From a virus (lineage: Duplodnaviria; Heunggongvirae; Uroviricota; Caudoviricetes): 5,217 bases of DNA. The translations under genes were made by a program, and so were the position numbers. The DNA is taken from IMG/VR virus record IMGVR_UViG_2711768068_000009, one strand, 5' to 3'. Position 1 is the first letter of the stretch. Each line of letters starts with the position of its first letter. Positions 1 to 5,217 of this stretch are shown in pieces. The notes under the pieces were generated by a model. It worked only from the letters and a program-made list of their open reading frames with translations, made no database searches and was not told where the DNA came from.

Positions 1-2
1 AT

Positions 3-593
3 AACGCCTATCGTTTCTGGCGTCGTTGCCGGAGTGACGGACTGGGCAACAGGGTGTTTCTGTTCAAGGGGGATGGACTTCGCCGTGACAGGCTGATTAA
101 CCGAACCTTCCCGGATAATACCGGCAGAAGTGCCCGCCGTGCCAGAGCCAGTGGCGATGTCGCGCTGTGGCTGGTTCAGACGGATGCGTTTAAGGATCGT
201 GTAAATAATGCCCTGTGGCGTGACACACCAGGGCCGAACTATATCCACTTTCCCGACTGGCTGGGGCGGTGGTTTTACGATGAGCTGACCTATGAAGAGC
301 GCGGCAGTGACGGAAAATGGCGAAAACCGGGCAGGGGCGCTAACGAAGCGTTTGACCTGCTGGTTTATGCGGATGCGCTTGCCGTTCTGCATGGTTACGA
401 AAAGATCCGCTGGCCCTCCGCACCGGACTGGGCACAGCGGGAAACGTGGCTCGTCTTCCCGCAGGAGCGTTCTGGTGAAACGGTATCCCCGGAACTGACG
501 GCCGGGGCAGAAAAACGCCGTCGCCGGAAGAAAAAACTGTGGACGGAGCGTGCGGAAGATAATCCATGGATAACATCAGGAGGCTGGTTGTGA
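3..593 (+). CDS. Terminase large subunit (lambda gpA-like), C-terminal part; 5' end lies outside the window
   Basis: Reading frame is open from the window edge (codons from nt 3) to TGA at 591-593. It sits immediately upstream of a gpW-like gene and a lambda-family portal gene, the conserved lambda order A-W-B. Its stop overlaps the next start (GTGA). The family call rests on synteny, not on a recognised motif. Confidence 0.55.
   Translation, partial: NAYRFWRRCRSDGLGNRVFLFKGDGLRRDRLINRTFPDNTGRSARRARASGDVALWLVQTDAFKDRVNNALWRDTPGPNYIHFPDWLGRWFYDELTYEERGSDGKWRKPGRGANEAFDLLVYADALAVLHGYEKIRWPSAPDWAQRETWLVFPQERSGETVSPELTAGAEKRRRRKKKLWTERAEDNPWITSGGWL
578..583 (+). promoter_or_regulatory. Shine-Dalgarno AGGAGG for the gpW-like gene
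   Basis: AGGAGG lies 6 nt upstream of GTG 590, which overlaps the terminase stop codon. Confidence 0.5.
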
Positions 594-802
594 TCACAGA
601 AGAAGCCAGAGAAATGATACAGCGGTACCGTGAAGCGGAAATGGCCGTACTGGAGGGAAAGTCTGTCACCTTCAACGGGCAGCAACTGACGCTGGAAAGC
701 CTTTCTCAGATCCGCGCCGGACGTCAGGAGTGGGAACGCAGGCTTGCCGCGATGGTGAGCCGCAGGCGGGGAAAACCGGGATTTAAACTGGCGAGGTTTT
801 AA
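590..802 (+). CDS. Head-tail joining / head completion protein, lambda gpW family (about 70 aa)
   Basis: The product resembles lambda gpW as I recall it: an L-x-G-K-x-V segment and a C-terminal RRRGKPGF (lambda has RRRGPAGF), at similar length. Preferred start is GTG 590-592, preceded by AGGAGG at 578-583 (6-nt spacer) and overlapping the terminase stop. The ORF track's ATG 566 is an in-frame alternative with a weaker ribosome-binding site. Stop TAA 800-802 overlaps the portal ATG. Confidence 0.7.
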   Translation: MITEEAREMIQRYREAEMAVLEGKSVTFNGQQLTLESLSQIRAGRQEWERRLAAMVSRRRGKPGFKLARF

Positions 803-2949
803 TGGCAATTATTGATGATGTGATCGGCGTGTTTTCCCCCGGGTGGAAAGCAGCCAGACTGCGTTCAAGGGCGTTAATCATGGCCTATGAGGCGGTGAAA
901 CCGACCCGGACACATAAAGCCCGGCGGGAAAATCGCTCTGCTGATCAGCTCAGTAAATACGGTGCGGTTTCCCTGCGGGAGCAGGCCCGTTTTCTGGATA
1001 TCAATCATGACCTGGTGATTGGTGTGTTTGACAAGCTGGAAGAGCGGGTGATTGGTGCCAGGGGAATTATTGTGGAGCCTCAGCCATTACGAAAAAACGG
1101 GGAAATGGCGGCTGAGCTGGCTGCGGATATCCGCCGTTTGTGGGCTGAATGGTCCGTGAGTCCGGATGTGACAGGGCAGTATACCCGTCCTGTGCTTGAA
1201 CGTTTACTGCTGCGGACCTGGCTGCGGGATGGTGAAGTGTTTGCGCAGATGGTCAGTGGTGCGGGAAACGGTCTGGAACGGACGGCAGGAGTGCCATTCT
1301 GGCTTGAGGCGATGGAGCCGGATTTTGTTCCCATGCGCACTGATGAATCCGCCGGACTGAATCAGGGGGTTTTTCTTGATGAGTGGGGAAGACCGAAAAA
1401 ATATCTGGTTTATAAAAATTATCCGGTCAGCGGCCGGCAGAGTGATACGAAAGAAATCGCTGCCGGAAAAATGATCCACCTGAAGTTCACTCGTCGTCTG
1501 CATCAGACGCGAGGCTCATCCATGTTATCGGGGGTGCTGATGCGGATCAGTGCCCTTAAGGAGTATGAGGATGCGGAACTGACAGCGGCGCGTATTGCTG
1601 CGGCGCTGGGACTGTATATCCGTAAAGGTGACGGACAGGACTATGAAGATCCGGGGAGCAAAGAGACCGAGCGGGAAGTCCATATCACCCCGGGTATTAT
1701 TTATGACGATTTGCGCAAGGGCGAGGATATCGGCATGGTCAAATCTGACCGTCCCAATCCCAACCTTGAAACTTTCCGCAACGGCCAGTTGCGTGCAGTG
1801 GCAGCAGGCAGTCGTCTGAGTTTTTCCAGTGCGGCGCGTAACTATAACGGCACCTACAGCGCCCAGCGGCAGGAGTTGGTCGAGTCCACGGATGGTTACC
1901 TGATCCTGCAGGACTGTTTTATTGGCGCGGTAACCCGCCCGGTGTACCGGACATGGCTGAATATGGTGGTTGCGGCAGGTCTGCTGAAAATTCCGGCGGA
2001 TTCATCAGTGCGCATGGGAACAAAATCCGGCTCCATCGCCTCAAGCCAGAATGGCACTCCAGGAGTGCCATTCTGGCTTGAGGCGATGGAGCCGGATTTT
2101 GTTCCCATGCGCACTGATGAATCCGCCGGACTGAATCAGGGGGTTTTTCTTGATGAGTGGGGAAGACCGAAAAAATATCTGGTTTATAAAAATTATCCGG
2201 TCAGCGGCCGGCAGAGTGATACGAAAGAAATCGCTGCCGGAAAAATGATCCACCTGAAGTTCACTCGTCGTCTGCATCAGACGCGAGGCTCATCCATGTT
2301 ATCAGGGGTGCTGATGCGGATCAGTGCCCTTAAGGAGTATGAGGATGCGGAACTGACTGCGGCGCGTATTGCTGCGGCGCTGGGACTGTATATCCGTAAA
2401 GGTGACGGGCAGGACTATGAAGATCCGGGGATCAAAGAAACCGAGCGGGAAGTCAATATCACCCCGGGTATTATTTATGACGATTTGCGCAAGGGCGAGG
2501 ATATCGGCATGGTCAAATCTGACCGTCCCAATCCCAACCTTGAAACTTTCCGCAACGGCCAGTTGCGTGCAGTGGCAGCAGGCAGTCGTCTGAGTTTTTC
2601 CAGTGCGGCGCGTAACTATAACGGCACCTACAGCGCCCAGCGGCAGGAGTTGGTCGAGTCCACGGATGGTTACCTGATCCTGCAGGACTGTTTTATTGGC
2701 GCGGTAACCCGCCCGGTGTACCGGACATGGCTGAATATGGTGGTTGCGGCAGGTCTGCTGAAAATTCCGGCGGATGTGGAGATGAAAACGCTATATAACG
2801 CGACGTATTCCGGTCCGGTGATGCCGTGGATCGACCCGGTTAAGGAAGCTGAAGCCTGGAGAATTCAGATCCGGGGTGGTGCAGCGACAGAATCTGACTG
2901 GGTGCGTGCCGGCGGGCGCAATCCGGATGAGGTCAAACGTACAGAGTGA
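802..2949 (+). CDS. Portal protein, lambda gpB family, aberrant: 715-aa ORF with an internal in-frame 258-codon duplication and a truncated C-terminus
   Basis: ATG 802 follows GAGG at 793-796. The N-terminal region and core show lambda gpB-like segments (RENRSADQLSKYGA...HDLVIGVF; MIHLKFTRRLHQTRG). Residues encoded by 1287..2001 are repeated at 2061..2775, joined by a 20-aa linker encoded by an inverted segment. The ORF ends at TGA 2947-2949, created by the second duplication junction, and lacks the native last 45 residues. Confidence 0.75.
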   Translation: MAIIDDVIGVFSPGWKAARLRSRALIMAYEAVKPTRTHKARRENRSADQLSKYGAVSLREQARFLDINHDLVIGVFDKLEERVIGARGIIVEPQPLRKNGEMAAELAADIRRLWAEWSVSPDVTGQYTRPVLERLLLRTWLRDGEVFAQMVSGAGNGLERTAGVPFWLEAMEPDFVPMRTDESAGLNQGVFLDEWGRPKKYLVYKNYPVSGRQSDTKEIAAGKMIHLKFTRRLHQTRGSSMLSGVLMRISALKEYEDAELTAARIAAALGLYIRKGDGQDYEDPGSKETEREVHITPGIIYDDLRKGEDIGMVKSDRPNPNLETFRNGQLRAVAAGSRLSFSSAARNYNGTYSAQRQELVESTDGYLILQDCFIGAVTRPVYRTWLNMVVAAGLLKIPADSSVRMGTKSGSIASSQNGTPGVPFWLEAMEPDFVPMRTDESAGLNQGVFLDEWGRPKKYLVYKNYPVSGRQSDTKEIAAGKMIHLKFTRRLHQTRGSSMLSGVLMRISALKEYEDAELTAARIAAALGLYIRKGDGQDYEDPGIKETEREVNITPGIIYDDLRKGEDIGMVKSDRPNPNLETFRNGQLRAVAAGSRLSFSSAARNYNGTYSAQRQELVESTDGYLILQDCFIGAVTRPVYRTWLNMVVAAGLLKIPADVEMKTLYNATYSGPVMPWIDPVKEAEAWRIQIRGGAATESDWVRAGGRNPDEVKRTE
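1287..2001. repeat. Direct repeat A, copy 1 (715 bp, portal core)
   Basis: Matches 2061..2775 at a 774-bp offset with 6 mismatches (1530, 1584, 1635, 1658, 1665, 1681), compared by eye. Confidence 0.9.
1992..2130. repeat. Perfect inverted repeat / palindrome, 69-bp arms (1992..2060 and 2062..2130) around a single central base at 2061
   Basis: 1992..2060 is the exact reverse complement of 2062..2130, checked base by base; symmetry breaks at 1991/2131. The left arm is an inverted copy of the start of repeat A. Confidence 0.9.
2061..2775. repeat. Direct repeat A, copy 2 (715 bp, portal core)
   Basis: Near-identical to 1287..2001. The match to the downstream copy continues to 2940. Confidence 0.9.
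2212..2940. repeat. Direct repeat B, copy 1 (729 bp, portal core plus C-terminal region)
   Basis: Matches 2942..3670 at a 730-bp offset with about 8 mismatches. A single unmatched A at 2941 separates the copies. Confidence 0.9.
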
Positions 2950-3670
2950 TACGAAAGAAATCGCTGCCGGAAAAATGATCCACCTGAAGTTCACTCGTCG
3001 TCTGCATCAGACGCGAGGCTCATCCATGTTATCGGGGGTGCTGATGCGGATCAGTGCCCTTAAGGAGTATGAGGATGCGGAACTGACTGCGGCGCGTATT
3101 GCTGCGGCGCTGGGACTGTATATCCGTAAAGGTGACGGACAGGACTATGAAGATCCGGGGAGCAAAGAGACCGAGCGGGAAGTCCATATCACCCCGGGTA
3201 TTATTTATGACGATTTGCGCAAGGGCGAGGATATCGGCATGGTCAAATCTGACCGTCCCAATCCCAACCTTGAAACTTTCCGCAACGGCCAGTTGCGTGC
3301 AGTGGCAGCTGGCAGTCGTCTGAGTTTTTCCAGTGCGGCGCGTAACTATAACGGCACCTACAGCGCCCAGAGGCAGGAGCTGGTCGAGTCCACGGATGGT
3401 TACCTGATCCTGCAGGACTGTTTTATTGGCGCGGTAACCCGCCCGGTGTACCGGACATGGCTGAATATGGTGGTTGCGGCAGGTCTGCTGAAAATTCCGG
3501 CGGATGTGGAGATGAAAACGCTATATAACGCGACGTATTCCGGTCCGGTGATGCCGTGGATCGACCCGGTTAAGGAAGCTGAAGCCTGGAGAATTCAGAT
3601 CCGGGGTGGTGCAGCGACAGAATCTGACTGGGTGCGTGCCGGCGGGCGCAATCCGGATGAGGTCAAACGT
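2942..3670. repeat. Direct repeat B, copy 2 (729 bp)
   Basis: Near-identical to 2212..2940. The 730-bp period is not a multiple of 3, so it shifts the frame. Confidence 0.9.
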
Positions 3671-3740
3671 CGCCGCAAGGCTGAAATTGATGAAAACAGC
3701 AGACTGGGGCTGGTCTTTGATACTGACCCCGTCAACGACA

Positions 3741-3747
3741 AAGGAGG
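3741..3747 (+). promoter_or_regulatory. Shine-Dalgarno AAGGAGG for the prohead protease gene
   Basis: AAGGAGG lies 5 nt upstream of in-frame GTG 3753, inside the 3' end of the portal reading frame. Confidence 0.5.
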
Positions 3748-3752
3748 CAACA

Positions 3753-5217
3753 GTGCCGGAACTGAACAACAGCGTCAGCAGGCCACCGACAGCCAGCATG
3801 AAGAATAAATCCTGGTTCAGGATGCAGGCGGGGGGGCAGGGTGAGGCGGATATTTATATTTATGACGAGATTGGTTTCTGGGGCGTCACCGCGAAGCAGT
3901 TTGTCAGCGATATGAATGCCCTGGGTGATATCACCCACATTAATCTCCACATCAACTCACCGGGTGGCGATGTTTTTGAAGGCATCGCCATTTTTAATGC
4001 CCTGAAAAATCACGGTGCGGCCATTACCGTGTATGTGGATGGCGTTGCCGCCTCGATGGCATCCCTGATTGCGATGGCCGGTGACACGGTCATTATGCCG
4101 GAAAATGCCTTCATGATGATCCATAAACCCTGGGGGATCAGCGGTGGTGATGCGGAGAAAATGCGCACTTATGCCGAACGTCTGGACAAACTTGAGTCGG
4201 TTATGGTGCCGGTATATGCGCAGAAAACCGGAAAAACTACCGATGAAATTGCCGCCATGCTGGAGGATGAGACCTGGATGTCCGGTGCCGAGTGTCTGGC
4301 ACACGGATTTGCAGACCAGGTGACGCCAGCCGTTAAGGCAATGGCATGTATTCAGTCAAAACGTACAGAGGAATTTAAAAAGATGCCGGAATCCATCCGA
4401 AATATGATCACGCAGCCACACAACTGTGCCCCGCATGATACCACAGTGACAATCCCTGCACCGACGGTAACAGAACCATCACCGGTACCGGCAGTGTCTG
4501 AGGAGGTGACCATTCGTGCCCGCGTTATGGCAGAACAGAAAGCCCGCATGTCAGGCATTAACGATCTGTTTGCCATGTTCGGCGGTCGCTATCAGACGCT
4601 TCAGGCACAGTGCGTGGCTGATCCTGACTGTTCGCTGGAAATGGCCCGCGAGCGCCTGCTGAATGAAATGGGTAAGGAATCTTCACCGACCAACAAAAAC
4701 ACACCGGCCCATATTTATGCCGGAAACGGCAATTTTGTGGGGGACGGGATCCGCCAGGCGATGCTGGCCCGTGCCGGATTTGAAAATGTCGAGAAGGATA
4801 ACGCCTATAACGGGATGACCCTGCGTGAATGGGCTCGCATGTCACTGACGGAGCGCGGTATTGGGGTGGCCAGTTATAACCCCATGCAGATGGTCGGGCT
4901 GGCGCTGACGCACAGCACCTCTGATTTTGGCAATATCCTGCTGGATGTGTCGAACAAGGGGCTGATCCAGGGCTGGGAGGAATCAGAAGAAACCTTCCAG
5001 AAGTGGACCCGTAAGGGCCGCCTGTCAGACTTCAAAACAGCGTATCGCGTGGGGATGGGCGGTTTTGGTTCTCTGCGTCAGGTTCGTGAGGGGGCGGAGT
5101 ATAAATACATCACCACCTCAGATCGCAAGGAGACCATTGCGCTGGCCACTTACGGGGAGATTTTCTCCATCACCCGCCAGGCCATTATCAATGATGATCT
5201 GAATATGCTGGTGGACG
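3753..5217 (+). CDS. ClpP-type (peptidase S14-like) prohead maturation protease continuous with a scaffold/major-capsid-like C-terminal region; 3' end lies outside the window
   Basis: One open frame runs from 3552 to the window end with no stop. ClpP-like motifs are present: INSPGGDVF, GVAASMAS (candidate catalytic Ser codon 4053-4055) and MMIHKPWG (candidate His codon 4122-4124). Preferred start is GTG 3753, 5 nt downstream of AAGGAGG (3741-3747); in-frame ATGs at 3798 and 3822 are alternatives. The capsid-like assignment of the part after about 4330 is inference from position and architecture. Confidence 0.75.
   Translation, partial: MPELNNSVSRPPTASMKNKSWFRMQAGGQGEADIYIYDEIGFWGVTAKQFVSDMNALGDITHINLHINSPGGDVFEGIAIFNALKNHGAAITVYVDGVAASMASLIAMAGDTVIMPENAFMMIHKPWGISGGDAEKMRTYAERLDKLESVMVPVYAQKTGKTTDEIAAMLEDETWMSGAECLAHGFADQVTPAVKAMACIQSKRTEEFKKMPESIRNMITQPHNCAPHDTTVTIPAPTVTEPSPVPAVSEEVTIRARVMAEQKARMSGINDLFAMFGGRYQTLQAQCVADPDCSLEMARERLLNEMGKESSPTNKNTPAHIYAGNGNFVGDGIRQAMLARAGFENVEKDNAYNGMTLREWARMSLTERGIGVASYNPMQMVGLALTHSTSDFGNILLDVSNKGLIQGWEESEETFQKWTRKGRLSDFKTAYRVGMGGFGSLRQVREGAEYKYITTSDRKETIALATYGEIFSITRQAIINDDLNMLVD

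What the first reader, a model, noticed from the sequence alone, without database searches (positions are those of the whole stretch)
1992..2130. Perfect 139-bp palindrome inside the portal gene, at the junction between repeat copies
1992..2060 is the exact reverse complement of 2062..2130. The left arm is an inverted copy of the first 69 bp of portal repeat copy 2, placed directly in front of it (a foldback). The join to copy 1 uses the near-palindromic microhomology TCCGGCGGA. Long perfect palindromes are unstable in enterobacteria because SbcCD cleaves hairpins, so this is unlikely to be a long-standing natural state. It is the classic signature of a foldback chimera from amplification or long-read library preparation, or of a very recent inverted-duplication event.
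Basis: partly seen in the sequence, partly recalled or inferred. Interest (0 to 1): 0.6.

Follow-up and report, generated by a model that had tools for sequence, protein, structure and literature searches.

The report
Foldback palindrome in scrambled portal gene
A perfect 139-base hairpin-forming palindrome really is in the sequence, but it is one breakpoint of a 1.5-kb scramble of a phage portal gene, stitched from several gene versions by a DNA polymerase jumping between templates; it is most likely a laboratory or assembly chimera, not a working genetic element.

Summary
Bases 1992-2060 are the exact reverse complement of 2062-2130, with a centre A at 2061, and the predicted DNA hairpin is -99.6 kcal/mol.

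The palindrome is not a stand-alone element. It is breakpoint 2 of 3 in a 1,504-bp extra block inside a lambda-family portal gene of an Stx-phage-like head module. About 740 natural copies in 5,426 complete E. coli genomes, 12 phage records and 17 fetched loci all have one intact 1,503-nt portal. None carries any of the junctions.

- **Junction 1** uses a natural 10-nt inverted repeat, TCCGGCGGAT (P about 1.5e-5 by chance).
- **Junction 2**, the palindrome centre, is a clean turn-around with 1 nt of homology.
- **Junction 3** carries an extra A that completes a 12-mer also found in the downstream protease gene.

The three portal copies differ only by substitutions, and 9 of the 10 differing sites are known natural polymorphisms. 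So the copies come from at least three gene versions, not from a fresh duplication in place.

Best reading (about 0.6): a serial template-switch chimera made in vitro and/or fixed by assembly of collapsed prophage repeats. A real recent in-vivo rearrangement (about 0.3) cannot be excluded without reads. Interest is low.

The parts
1..593 (+). 3' end of the terminase large subunit gene (gpA endonuclease domain)
   Evidence: Pfam PF20454 at 1.1e-34. Collinear with annotated terminase genes in L001 and L002. There are 0 mismatches over 1-801 to seven natural loci.
590..802 (+). Small gene in the head-tail joining (gpW) position, 70 aa
   Evidence: Annotated as a 213-nt CDS at this position in natural loci. 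The exact protein occurs in 160 blocks of the collection, always followed by one 500-aa portal in the 11 places shown.
802..2001 (+). Portal segment A: portal start to position 2001 of the normal locus. Includes repeat copy 1 (1286-2001).
   Evidence: Gap-free match to natural portals. 1288-2001 is 100% identical to many O157:H7 prophage alleles.
1347..1356 (+). Natural ATCCGCCGGA, the upstream partner of the 10-nt inverted repeat used at junction 1
   Evidence: It is one of only about 7 natural inverted pairs of 10 nt or more in the 3.7-kb normal locus.
1992..2001 (+). Junction 1 microhomology TCCGGCGGAT, shared by the end of segment A and the start of the inverted block
   Evidence: Microhomology of 10 nt or more at a random inversion junction has P about 1.5e-5.
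1992..2060 (-). Left palindrome arm: inverted copy of portal positions 1288-1356
   Evidence: the repeat finder I1 and I2, 100% complementary; verified.
2061..2061 (.). Palindrome centre (A) and junction 2, the turn-around point. Corresponds to normal-locus position 1287.
   Evidence: Only 1 nt (C at 2060) is shared by both sides. The natural sequence has no quasi-palindrome centred here. A at position 1287 is a rare natural allele, seen in L004 only.
2062..2130 (+). Right palindrome arm: first 69 nt of copy 2 after the centre base
2060..2940 (+). Portal copy 2 (normal-locus positions 1286-2166)
   Evidence: Register offset of 774 from copy 1. It has six substitutions against copy 1, and all six match the natural allele of L003/L006. 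The best natural match has 2 mismatches.
2935..2946 (+). Junction 3. Copy 2 ends at 2940 (AAACGT), an extra A sits at 2941, and copy 3 starts at 2942 (CAGAG). The 12-mer AAACGTACAGAG spans the join.
   Evidence: A spanning match of 12 nt or more was seen in 24 of 4,395 non-trivial simulated junctions, about 0.5%.
4359..4370 (+). Natural AAACGTACAGAG in the protease gene, the probable donor of the extra A at junction 3
   Evidence: Present once, at normal-locus position 2855, in each of the six natural loci checked, L001-L006.
2942..3808 (+). Portal copy 3 (normal-locus position 1438 to the portal stop)
   Evidence: Register offset of 730 from copy 2. Pfam PF05136, profile positions 180-354. 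Best natural match is 99.5%. The haplotype at 3060-3175 is absent from 740 natural copies.
802..2949 (+). Fused 715-aa ORF. The portal reads in frame through the palindrome into copy 2 and stops at a TGA created by the frameshift at junction 3.
   Evidence: the ORF listing. The 774 offset equals 3 x 258, so copy 2 stays in frame. PF05136 matches in two stretches. The natural protein is 500 aa.
3798..5217 (+). 5' part of the ClpP-like prohead protease / major capsid fusion gene, which runs off the window
   Evidence: Pfam CLP_protease and Phage_capsid_4; annotation in natural loci.

Best explanation
The palindrome is the turn-around point of a chimeric DNA strand built by serial template switching on a pool of near-identical prophage portal genes.

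The path, read 5' to 3', is as follows.

1. A growing strand copied the portal gene up to normal-locus position 2001.
2. Its freed 3' end (TCCGGCGGAT) re-annealed to the complementary 10-mer 645 nt upstream on a same-sense strand. It then copied 59 further nucleotides backwards, to position 1288.
3. It switched onto the complementary strand. This creates a perfect, spacer-less palindrome.
4. It ran forward 880 nt, to position 2166.
5. It jumped back to position 1438, probably touching down briefly on AAACGTACAGAG in the protease gene.

The templates were different alleles of the gene. The product was therefore assembled from several prophage copies or strains, not from one locus.

I judge it most likely that this happened outside the cell, during strand-displacement or whole-genome amplification or during end-repair synthesis in library preparation. 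Consensus or polishing over collapsed prophage repeats may then have mixed the alleles further. On this reading the palindrome has no biological function and is not a heritable state of the phage.

Shown: the architecture, the microhomologies, the allele mixture, and the absence from natural copies. Inferred: the order of events, the enzyme, and the in-vitro setting.
For: - **Normal state.** The normal locus is 3,713 bp against our 5,217 bp in every one of more than 530 full-length E. coli matches and 12 phage records, a difference of 1,504 bp.
- **Junctions are unique to this window.** No record holds the palindrome or junction 1 or 3 contiguously. This covers complete E. coli genomes, phages, plasmids, and the viral, genome and metagenome contig collections.
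- **Single portal elsewhere.** All 17 natural loci fetched have one 500-aa portal.
- **Junction 1 is annealing-driven.** It uses a natural 10-nt inverted repeat, with P about 1.5e-5 for a random junction.
- **Junction 3 looks templated.** It reproduces a natural 12-mer from 1.4 kb downstream, with P about 0.005.
- **The copies are different alleles.** They differ at 10 sites by substitution only. At 9 of these the bases are known natural polymorphisms. Copy 2 carries the whole L003/L006-type patch at positions 1530-1681.
- **Haplotypes of copies 2 and 3 are not seen in nature.** None of about 740 natural copies matches them exactly. A single-site switch at position 1584 in copy 3 is what mixed-template synthesis or mixed-read consensus would give.
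- **Published precedent.** In multiple displacement amplification (MDA), 85% of chimeras are inverted joins. Most are less than 10 kb apart, primed at 2-21 nt of complementarity (PMC1855051).
- **Gene function is lost.** The fused ORF is 715 aa and a frameshift follows at junction 3.
- **Assembly context.** In draft assemblies this region usually sits on 5-10 kb contigs, meaning it is a collapsed or fragmented repeat.
Against: - No reads, coverage or sample metadata are available, so an artefact is not demonstrated.
- Three or four switches within 2.3 kb is much denser than the roughly one chimera per 22 kb reported for MDA.
- Lasken and Stockwell found turn-around template switching to be a minor route in MDA.
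- The sequence has no indels against natural alleles, so it is not a raw long read.
- The right flank is a genuine, unsampled natural allele. Novel haplotypes in copies 2 and 3 could therefore partly reflect an unsampled phage lineage.
- A 139-bp palindrome is shorter than those shown to be harmful in E. coli, so persistence in a cell is not excluded.
Confidence: 0.6

Rival explanations
1. A real, very recent in-vivo rearrangement of a (now defective) prophage. A replication fork or a break-induced replication event switched templates several times, in the manner of microhomology-mediated break-induced replication (MMBIR), fork stalling and template switching (FoSTeS), or a tandem inversion duplication. 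It used the natural 10-bp inverted repeat and other prophage copies in the same chromosome. This left a duplication-inversion-duplication structure with one junction still palindromic.
For: The microhomology junctions and the short templated insertion are exactly what replicative template switching produces in cells. STEC (Shiga-toxin-producing E. coli) genomes carry up to 4 copies of this portal family, which could serve as ectopic templates. Palindromes of this size are not proven lethal in recombination-proficient E. coli. The sequence quality is high, and the flanks are collinear with natural prophages. Inverted duplications do form in the E. coli chromosome (PMC3315005).
Against: Sister-strand switching would give identical copies. 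Here three allele versions are joined within 2.3 kb, which would require jumps between prophages megabases apart. None of about 740 natural copies has any of the junctions. The palindrome centre is not at a natural quasi-palindrome, as snap-back models require. The arms are still 100% identical, and 716-bp direct repeats flank the inverted block. The structure could therefore survive only briefly (inference).
Confidence: 0.3
2. A purely computational misassembly. The assembler walked the collapsed graph of several near-identical prophages three times, once on the wrong strand, without any chimeric molecule existing.
For: The region is a multi-copy repeat that draft assemblies usually leave on 5-10 kb contigs. 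The site-wise mosaic of alleles in copies 2 and 3 is typical of consensus over collapsed repeats.
Against: The junction sequences do not exist in any natural copy. The shared sequences are only 10, 1 and 5-6 nt, far below any usual k-mer or overlap length, so a graph walk cannot create them without reads that contain them (inference). I considered a gap-closing step with a 10-nt minimum overlap. That idea rests only on my recollection of one assembler's settings. It would also need read pairs in the wrong orientation.
Confidence: 0.07
3. A functional hairpin element, such as a terminator, a regulatory stem-loop, a hairpin-telomere or resolvase site, or a recombination site.
For: A very stable predicted hairpin.
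Against: Both arms are ordinary portal coding sequence. The left arm is a copy of 1288-1356. The element is absent from all natural alleles. It lies inside an ORF and interrupts an essential gene.
Confidence: 0.01

Closest known systems
Inverted chimeras of multiple displacement amplification (Lasken & Stockwell 2007, PMC1855051)
   Same: An inverted join of two segments less than 1 kb apart in the same gene. The 3' end is primed at a short complementary stretch (10 nt here; 2-21 nt in the paper). The second segment lies upstream. Intermolecular jumps can bring in other templates.
   Different: There are three to four switches in 2.3 kb, against about one per 22 kb reported. The turn-around that makes the perfect palindrome was a minor route in that study. 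Nothing shows that this sample was amplified.
Foldback artefacts of long-read sequencing (Heinz, Meyerson & Li 2026, PMC12870357)
   Same: A sequence followed directly by its own reverse complement.
   Different: In those artefacts half the read is the reverse of the other half. Here only 69 nt are inverted, then the forward sequence resumes for 3 kb. The window also has none of the indels typical of raw long reads.
Tandem inversion duplication of Salmonella/E. coli (Kugelberg et al. 2010, Genetics 185:65). Cited from my own knowledge; the paper could not be opened.
   Same: The order is direct copy, inverted segment, direct copy. One junction uses a natural short inverted repeat. One junction is palindromic. 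The structure is expected to be unstable and remodelled by deletion.
   Different: The inverted middle copy is only 69 nt. The palindromic junction is not centred on a natural quasi-palindrome. The copies are different alleles. There is a third direct copy, and no selection for copy number is apparent.
Complex rearrangements from microhomology-mediated break-induced replication or fork stalling and template switching (MMBIR/FoSTeS; own knowledge of the eukaryotic and E. coli amplification literature)
   Same: Clustered breakpoints, microhomology of 1-10 nt, and a very short templated insertion from a third site nearby.
   Different: Those are heritable genomic events confirmed by reads or PCR. 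Here heritability is untested, and the allele mixture argues for a pool of templates.
Engineered long palindromes in the E. coli chromosome (PMC4245961, PMC3315005)
   Same: A perfect palindrome that would form hairpins during replication and be a substrate for SbcCD.
   Different: 139 bp here, against the 246-bp interrupted palindrome (tolerated) and the 460-bp perfect one (lethal) that were tested. The behaviour of this length in a chromosome is not documented in the papers read.

Membership tests
Lambda-family phage portal gene (Pfam PF05136) | Protein matches the Phage_portal_2 profile above the curated cut-off and sits between the terminase/gpW genes and the prohead protease gene | tested here: met
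   442 bits against a cut-off of 32.9, in two stretches in the 715-aa ORF. Copy 3 covers profile positions 180-354. Synteny matches annotated natural loci.
Lambda-family phage portal gene (Pfam PF05136) | A single intact reading frame of about 500 aa | tested here: not met
   The window has a 715-aa fused ORF and a separate C-terminal fragment. All 17 natural loci have 500 aa.
Strand-displacement amplification (MDA) chimera | Inverted join of segments less than 10 kb apart | tested here: met
   Junction 1 joins position 2001 forward to position 1356 reverse, 645 nt apart.
Strand-displacement amplification (MDA) chimera | 2-21 nt of complementarity at the priming site | tested here: inconclusive
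   Junction 1 has 10 nt. Junction 3 has 5-6 nt on each side if it is read as two hops. Junction 2 has only 1 nt.
Strand-displacement amplification (MDA) chimera | The DNA was amplified before sequencing, and the junctions are supported by few, non-reproducible reads | not testable with these tools
   No reads or sample metadata are available. The source record was not found in any collection.
Long-read foldback artefact | One half of the molecule maps to the same place as the other half on the opposite strand | tested here: not met
   The inverted part is 69 nt of 5,217, and forward sequence resumes after it.
Tandem inversion duplication (TID) | Three copies of a region with the middle one inverted | tested here: inconclusive
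   The order is direct, inverted, direct, but the inverted unit is 69 nt against 716-881 nt direct copies. A further direct copy follows.
Tandem inversion duplication (TID) | Junctions arise at natural short inverted repeats or quasi-palindromes | tested here: inconclusive
   Junction 1 does, using the natural 10-bp inverted repeat. Junction 2 does not: only one base pair (C-G) is symmetric around position 1287 in the natural sequence.
Tandem inversion duplication (TID) | Copies derive from one locus and are identical at birth | tested here: not met
   The copies differ at 10 sites, 9 of them known natural polymorphisms.
SbcCD-sensitive long palindrome | Perfect or near-perfect inverted repeat with little or no spacer | tested here: met
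   69-nt arms, 1-nt centre, 100% complementary.
SbcCD-sensitive long palindrome | Length in the range shown to cause breaks or death in E. coli | tested here: inconclusive
   139 bp here, against a 246-bp interrupted palindrome (tolerated if recombination-proficient) and a 460-bp perfect one (lethal) in PMC4245961. No data for this length were found in the papers read.

The most novel reading that the evidence does not exclude
The structure is real and heritable. On this reading, a wild enterobacterial prophage carries a fresh complex rearrangement made by replication that hopped between three different resident prophage copies of the same gene. It would still hold an unprocessed 139-bp perfect palindrome. 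That would be a natural snapshot of the unstable intermediate postulated for tandem inversion duplications and microhomology-mediated break-induced replication in bacteria.
Probability: 0.25. Interest if true: 0.45.

Novelty: not a real feature. Interest (0 to 1): 0.15.

Why it matters
If it is a chimera, the practical value is quality control. The record should not be annotated as a 715-aa portal or used as evidence for gene duplication in phages. The pattern is also a usable fingerprint for flagging such contigs: a short inverted block, microhomology at the joins, and repeat copies that carry different alleles.

If it were real, it would be a rare natural capture of a palindromic intermediate of template-switch rearrangement in a wild-type enterobacterium. 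It would also show ectopic template use among resident prophages.

Tried and rejected
- **Finding the source record or a second occurrence.** Exact scans for the palindrome centre, junction 1 and junction 3 in the viral, genome and metagenome contig collections found nothing. An exact look-up of the 715-aa product found nothing. BLAST of the junction regions against complete E. coli genomes, phages and plasmids gave no contiguous match. The one place with 99% coverage (H129) is two pieces spread over 714 bp of a normal portal, not a junction.
- **Snap-back at the natural mini-hairpin GGCA-GGAG-TGCC (1284-1295).** This would predict ...GGCACTCCTGCC..., not the observed ...GGCACTCC-A-GGAGTGCC.... 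Rejected from the sequence.
- **Centre A and extra A at 2941 as non-templated A-tails, followed by ligation or rolling-circle copying of a closed panhandle.** Rejected. Copy 2 runs past position 2001 without a second inverted block. A at position 1287 is also a natural allele, present in copy 1 and in L004.
- **Post-duplication point mutation as the source of differences between copies.** Rejected. At 9 of the 10 sites the bases are known polymorphisms.
- **Sequencing error as the source of the divergent right flank.** Rejected. The novel sites form a third-codon-position patch.
- **An assembler gap-closing step with a 10-nt minimum overlap as the origin of junction 1.** Recollection only, and it would need wrongly oriented read pairs. 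Not pursued.
- **The primary papers on tandem inversion duplication** could not be opened.
Full report
**1. The observation.** The palindrome is exactly as described. Bases 1992-2060 are the perfect reverse complement of 2062-2130, with a single centre base, A, at 2061. The symmetry ends at 1991/2131. As single-stranded DNA it folds into one uninterrupted 69-bp hairpin of -99.6 kcal/mol, against -25.9 +/- 3.1 for shuffled sequence. In 182 kb of natural homologous loci, the longest comparable palindrome has 13-nt arms. The left arm is also the exact inverse of 1288-1356.

**2. The setting.** The window is the head-module start of a lambdoid, Stx-phage-like prophage of E. coli. It holds four genes in order:
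- the end of the terminase large subunit gene (1-593, PF20454);
- a 70-aa gene in the gpW position (590-802);
- a lambda-family portal gene (from 802, PF05136);
- a ClpP-protease/major-capsid fusion gene (from 3798).

In more than 530 complete E. coli genomes and 12 phage records, the same stretch measures 3,713 bp instead of 5,217 bp. The natural portal is 1,503 nt, or 500 aa. The window therefore holds 1,504 extra bases, all of them portal sequence.

**3. Anatomy of the extra block.** Coordinates of the normal locus equal window coordinates up to 2001.
- Segment A is 1-2001, forward.
- Segment B is 1992-2060, the inverse of positions 1356-1288.
- Segment C is 2060/2061-2940, which is positions 1286/1287-2166, forward.
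- One extra A sits at 2941.
- Segment D is 2942-5217, which is positions 1438-3713, forward.

*Junction 1 (A to B)* shares 10 nt, TCCGGCGGAT. This is one arm of a natural 10-bp inverted repeat in the gene (1347-1356 and 1992-2001). Only about seven such pairs exist in the 3.7-kb locus. A random inversion junction would show 10 nt or more of homology with P about 1.5e-5.

*Junction 2 (B to C)* is the palindrome centre. It shares only 1 nt. It is not centred on any natural quasi-palindrome, so simple hairpin snap-back at the nearby GGCA-GGAG-TGCC motif does not produce it.

*Junction 3 (C to D)* reads AAACGT-A-CAGAG. The resulting 12-mer AAACGTACAGAG also occurs naturally in the protease gene at 4359-4370, and at the same place in each of the six natural loci checked. 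In simulations, a spanning match that long turned up in about 0.5% of random junctions. The extra A is therefore probably templated by a brief third touchdown, with 6 and 5 nt of homology on either side.

The 774-nt offset keeps copy 2 in frame, giving a 715-aa fused ORF (802-2949). The 730-nt offset shifts the frame and creates a stop just after junction 3. Such a portal locus cannot be expected to build a phage head (inference).

**4. The copies are different alleles.** The three overlapping copies differ at ten sites, all substitutions and no indels. I compared them with 17 natural loci, each with a single portal.
- At nine of the ten sites, the bases are known natural polymorphisms.
- Copy 1 is identical to common O157:H7 prophage alleles.
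- All six differences between copy 2 and copy 1 (positions 1530-1681) reproduce the allele found in strains OkiPb01678 (L003) and Res13-Lact-PEA12-26 (L006). The rest of copy 2 is of the copy-1 type.
- Copy 3 is a third combination, including a single-site switch at position 1584.

None of about 740 natural copies has the copy-2 haplotype (best is 2 mismatches). None has the copy-3 haplotype either (best is 4 mismatches in 867 nt, and no exact match even over 116 nt).

Random mutation after a duplication would not land on known polymorphic sites with the known bases. The block was therefore copied from at least three versions of the gene. One caveat applies. The right flank is a genuine unsampled allele, with 22 or more mismatches to every locus, including a patch of seven third-codon-position changes at 4649-4685. 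Some haplotype novelty may therefore be natural.

**5. Mechanism.** Microhomology at junctions 1 and 3, a 1-nt templated insertion, and a clean turn-around all point to a polymerase that repeatedly left its template and resumed elsewhere. They do not point to ligation of broken ends or to homologous recombination.

A strand switch from the template onto its complement is the simplest way to get a spacer-less perfect palindrome. The inverted, closely spaced, microhomology-primed join is the dominant chimera class of multiple displacement amplification. In that work 85% of chimeras were inverted, complementarity was 2-21 nt, and most joins were less than 10 kb apart (PMC1855051). Other in-vitro routes also exist. 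Chimeric reads built on natural inverted repeats arise during library preparation (PMC10908179).

The whole-molecule foldback of long-read platforms does not fit, because only 69 nt are inverted (PMC12870357). The use of several alleles fits a pool of templates in a tube. It also fits later consensus or polishing over collapsed prophage repeats. Draft assemblies usually leave this region on 5-10 kb contigs, and the window itself is 5.2 kb.

**6. The rival.** The same signatures are produced in cells by replication template switching, as in tandem inversion duplications and microhomology-mediated break-induced replication. STEC (Shiga-toxin-producing E. coli) genomes hold up to four copies of this portal family.

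The SbcCD argument alone does not exclude a real structure. A 246-bp interrupted palindrome is tolerated in recombination-proficient E. coli, and lethality was shown for a 460-bp perfect one (PMC4245961).

Four points argue against a heritable origin:
- three alleles are joined within 2.3 kb;
- all junctions are absent from every natural copy;
- the arms are perfectly identical;
- 716-bp direct repeats flank the inverted block and would delete it quickly (inference).

I put the in-vitro or assembly chimera at about 0.6, a real recent rearrangement at about 0.3, a purely computational misjoin at about 0.07, and any functional reading at about 0.01.

**7. Verdict.** The feature is real in the sequence and correctly described. 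It is most probably not a real feature of the phage. It has no plausible function and belongs to known kinds of template-switch products. Interest is low. Only the reads, or a locus-specific PCR anchored on the unique patch at 4649-4685, can settle tube versus cell.

Noticed in passing
window 2935-2946 and 4359-4370: The 12-mer AAACGTACAGAG created at the copy 2 / copy 3 junction also occurs naturally in the protease gene 1.4 kb downstream. This suggests a brief third template touchdown rather than a random inserted A.
   Followed up: yes
window 4649-4685: Seven substitutions, all spaced by multiples of three, in the protease/capsid fusion gene. None is seen in 16 natural loci. This is a short divergent recombination patch that marks this allele and could anchor a locus-specific primer.
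   Followed up: partly
window 1287 and 2061: Both copy 1 and the palindrome centre carry A, where 16 of 17 natural loci have G; only PNUSAE008512 (L004) has A. The start of copy 2 therefore shares the rare allele of copy 1, even though its interior carries a different allele patch.
   Followed up: partly
L013 about 1-5600 and L014 about 1-6000 (GCA_025040375.1, GCA_012760715.1): In two draft assemblies the terminase gene upstream of gpW/portal is truncated. It is preceded by SSB and a second ClpP/capsid fusion gene (630 aa), with a D5-type primase gene also called in L014. This could be a satellite-like element or a second prophage abutting the head module.
   Followed up: no
L011 8386-9599 (AP024475.1); phage VT1-Sakai AP000400.1: An IS element (HTH_Tnp_1 plus rve transposase genes) interrupts the protease/capsid fusion gene in one natural locus. 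VT1-Sakai is annotated with IS629 in the same region. Natural inactivation of this head module by insertion does occur.
   Followed up: no
L002 5007-6985, L004 1184-3308 and 5009-6987: Several natural prophage copies of this module are annotated with frameshifted terminase or protease/capsid genes. Many resident copies are already defective.
   Followed up: no
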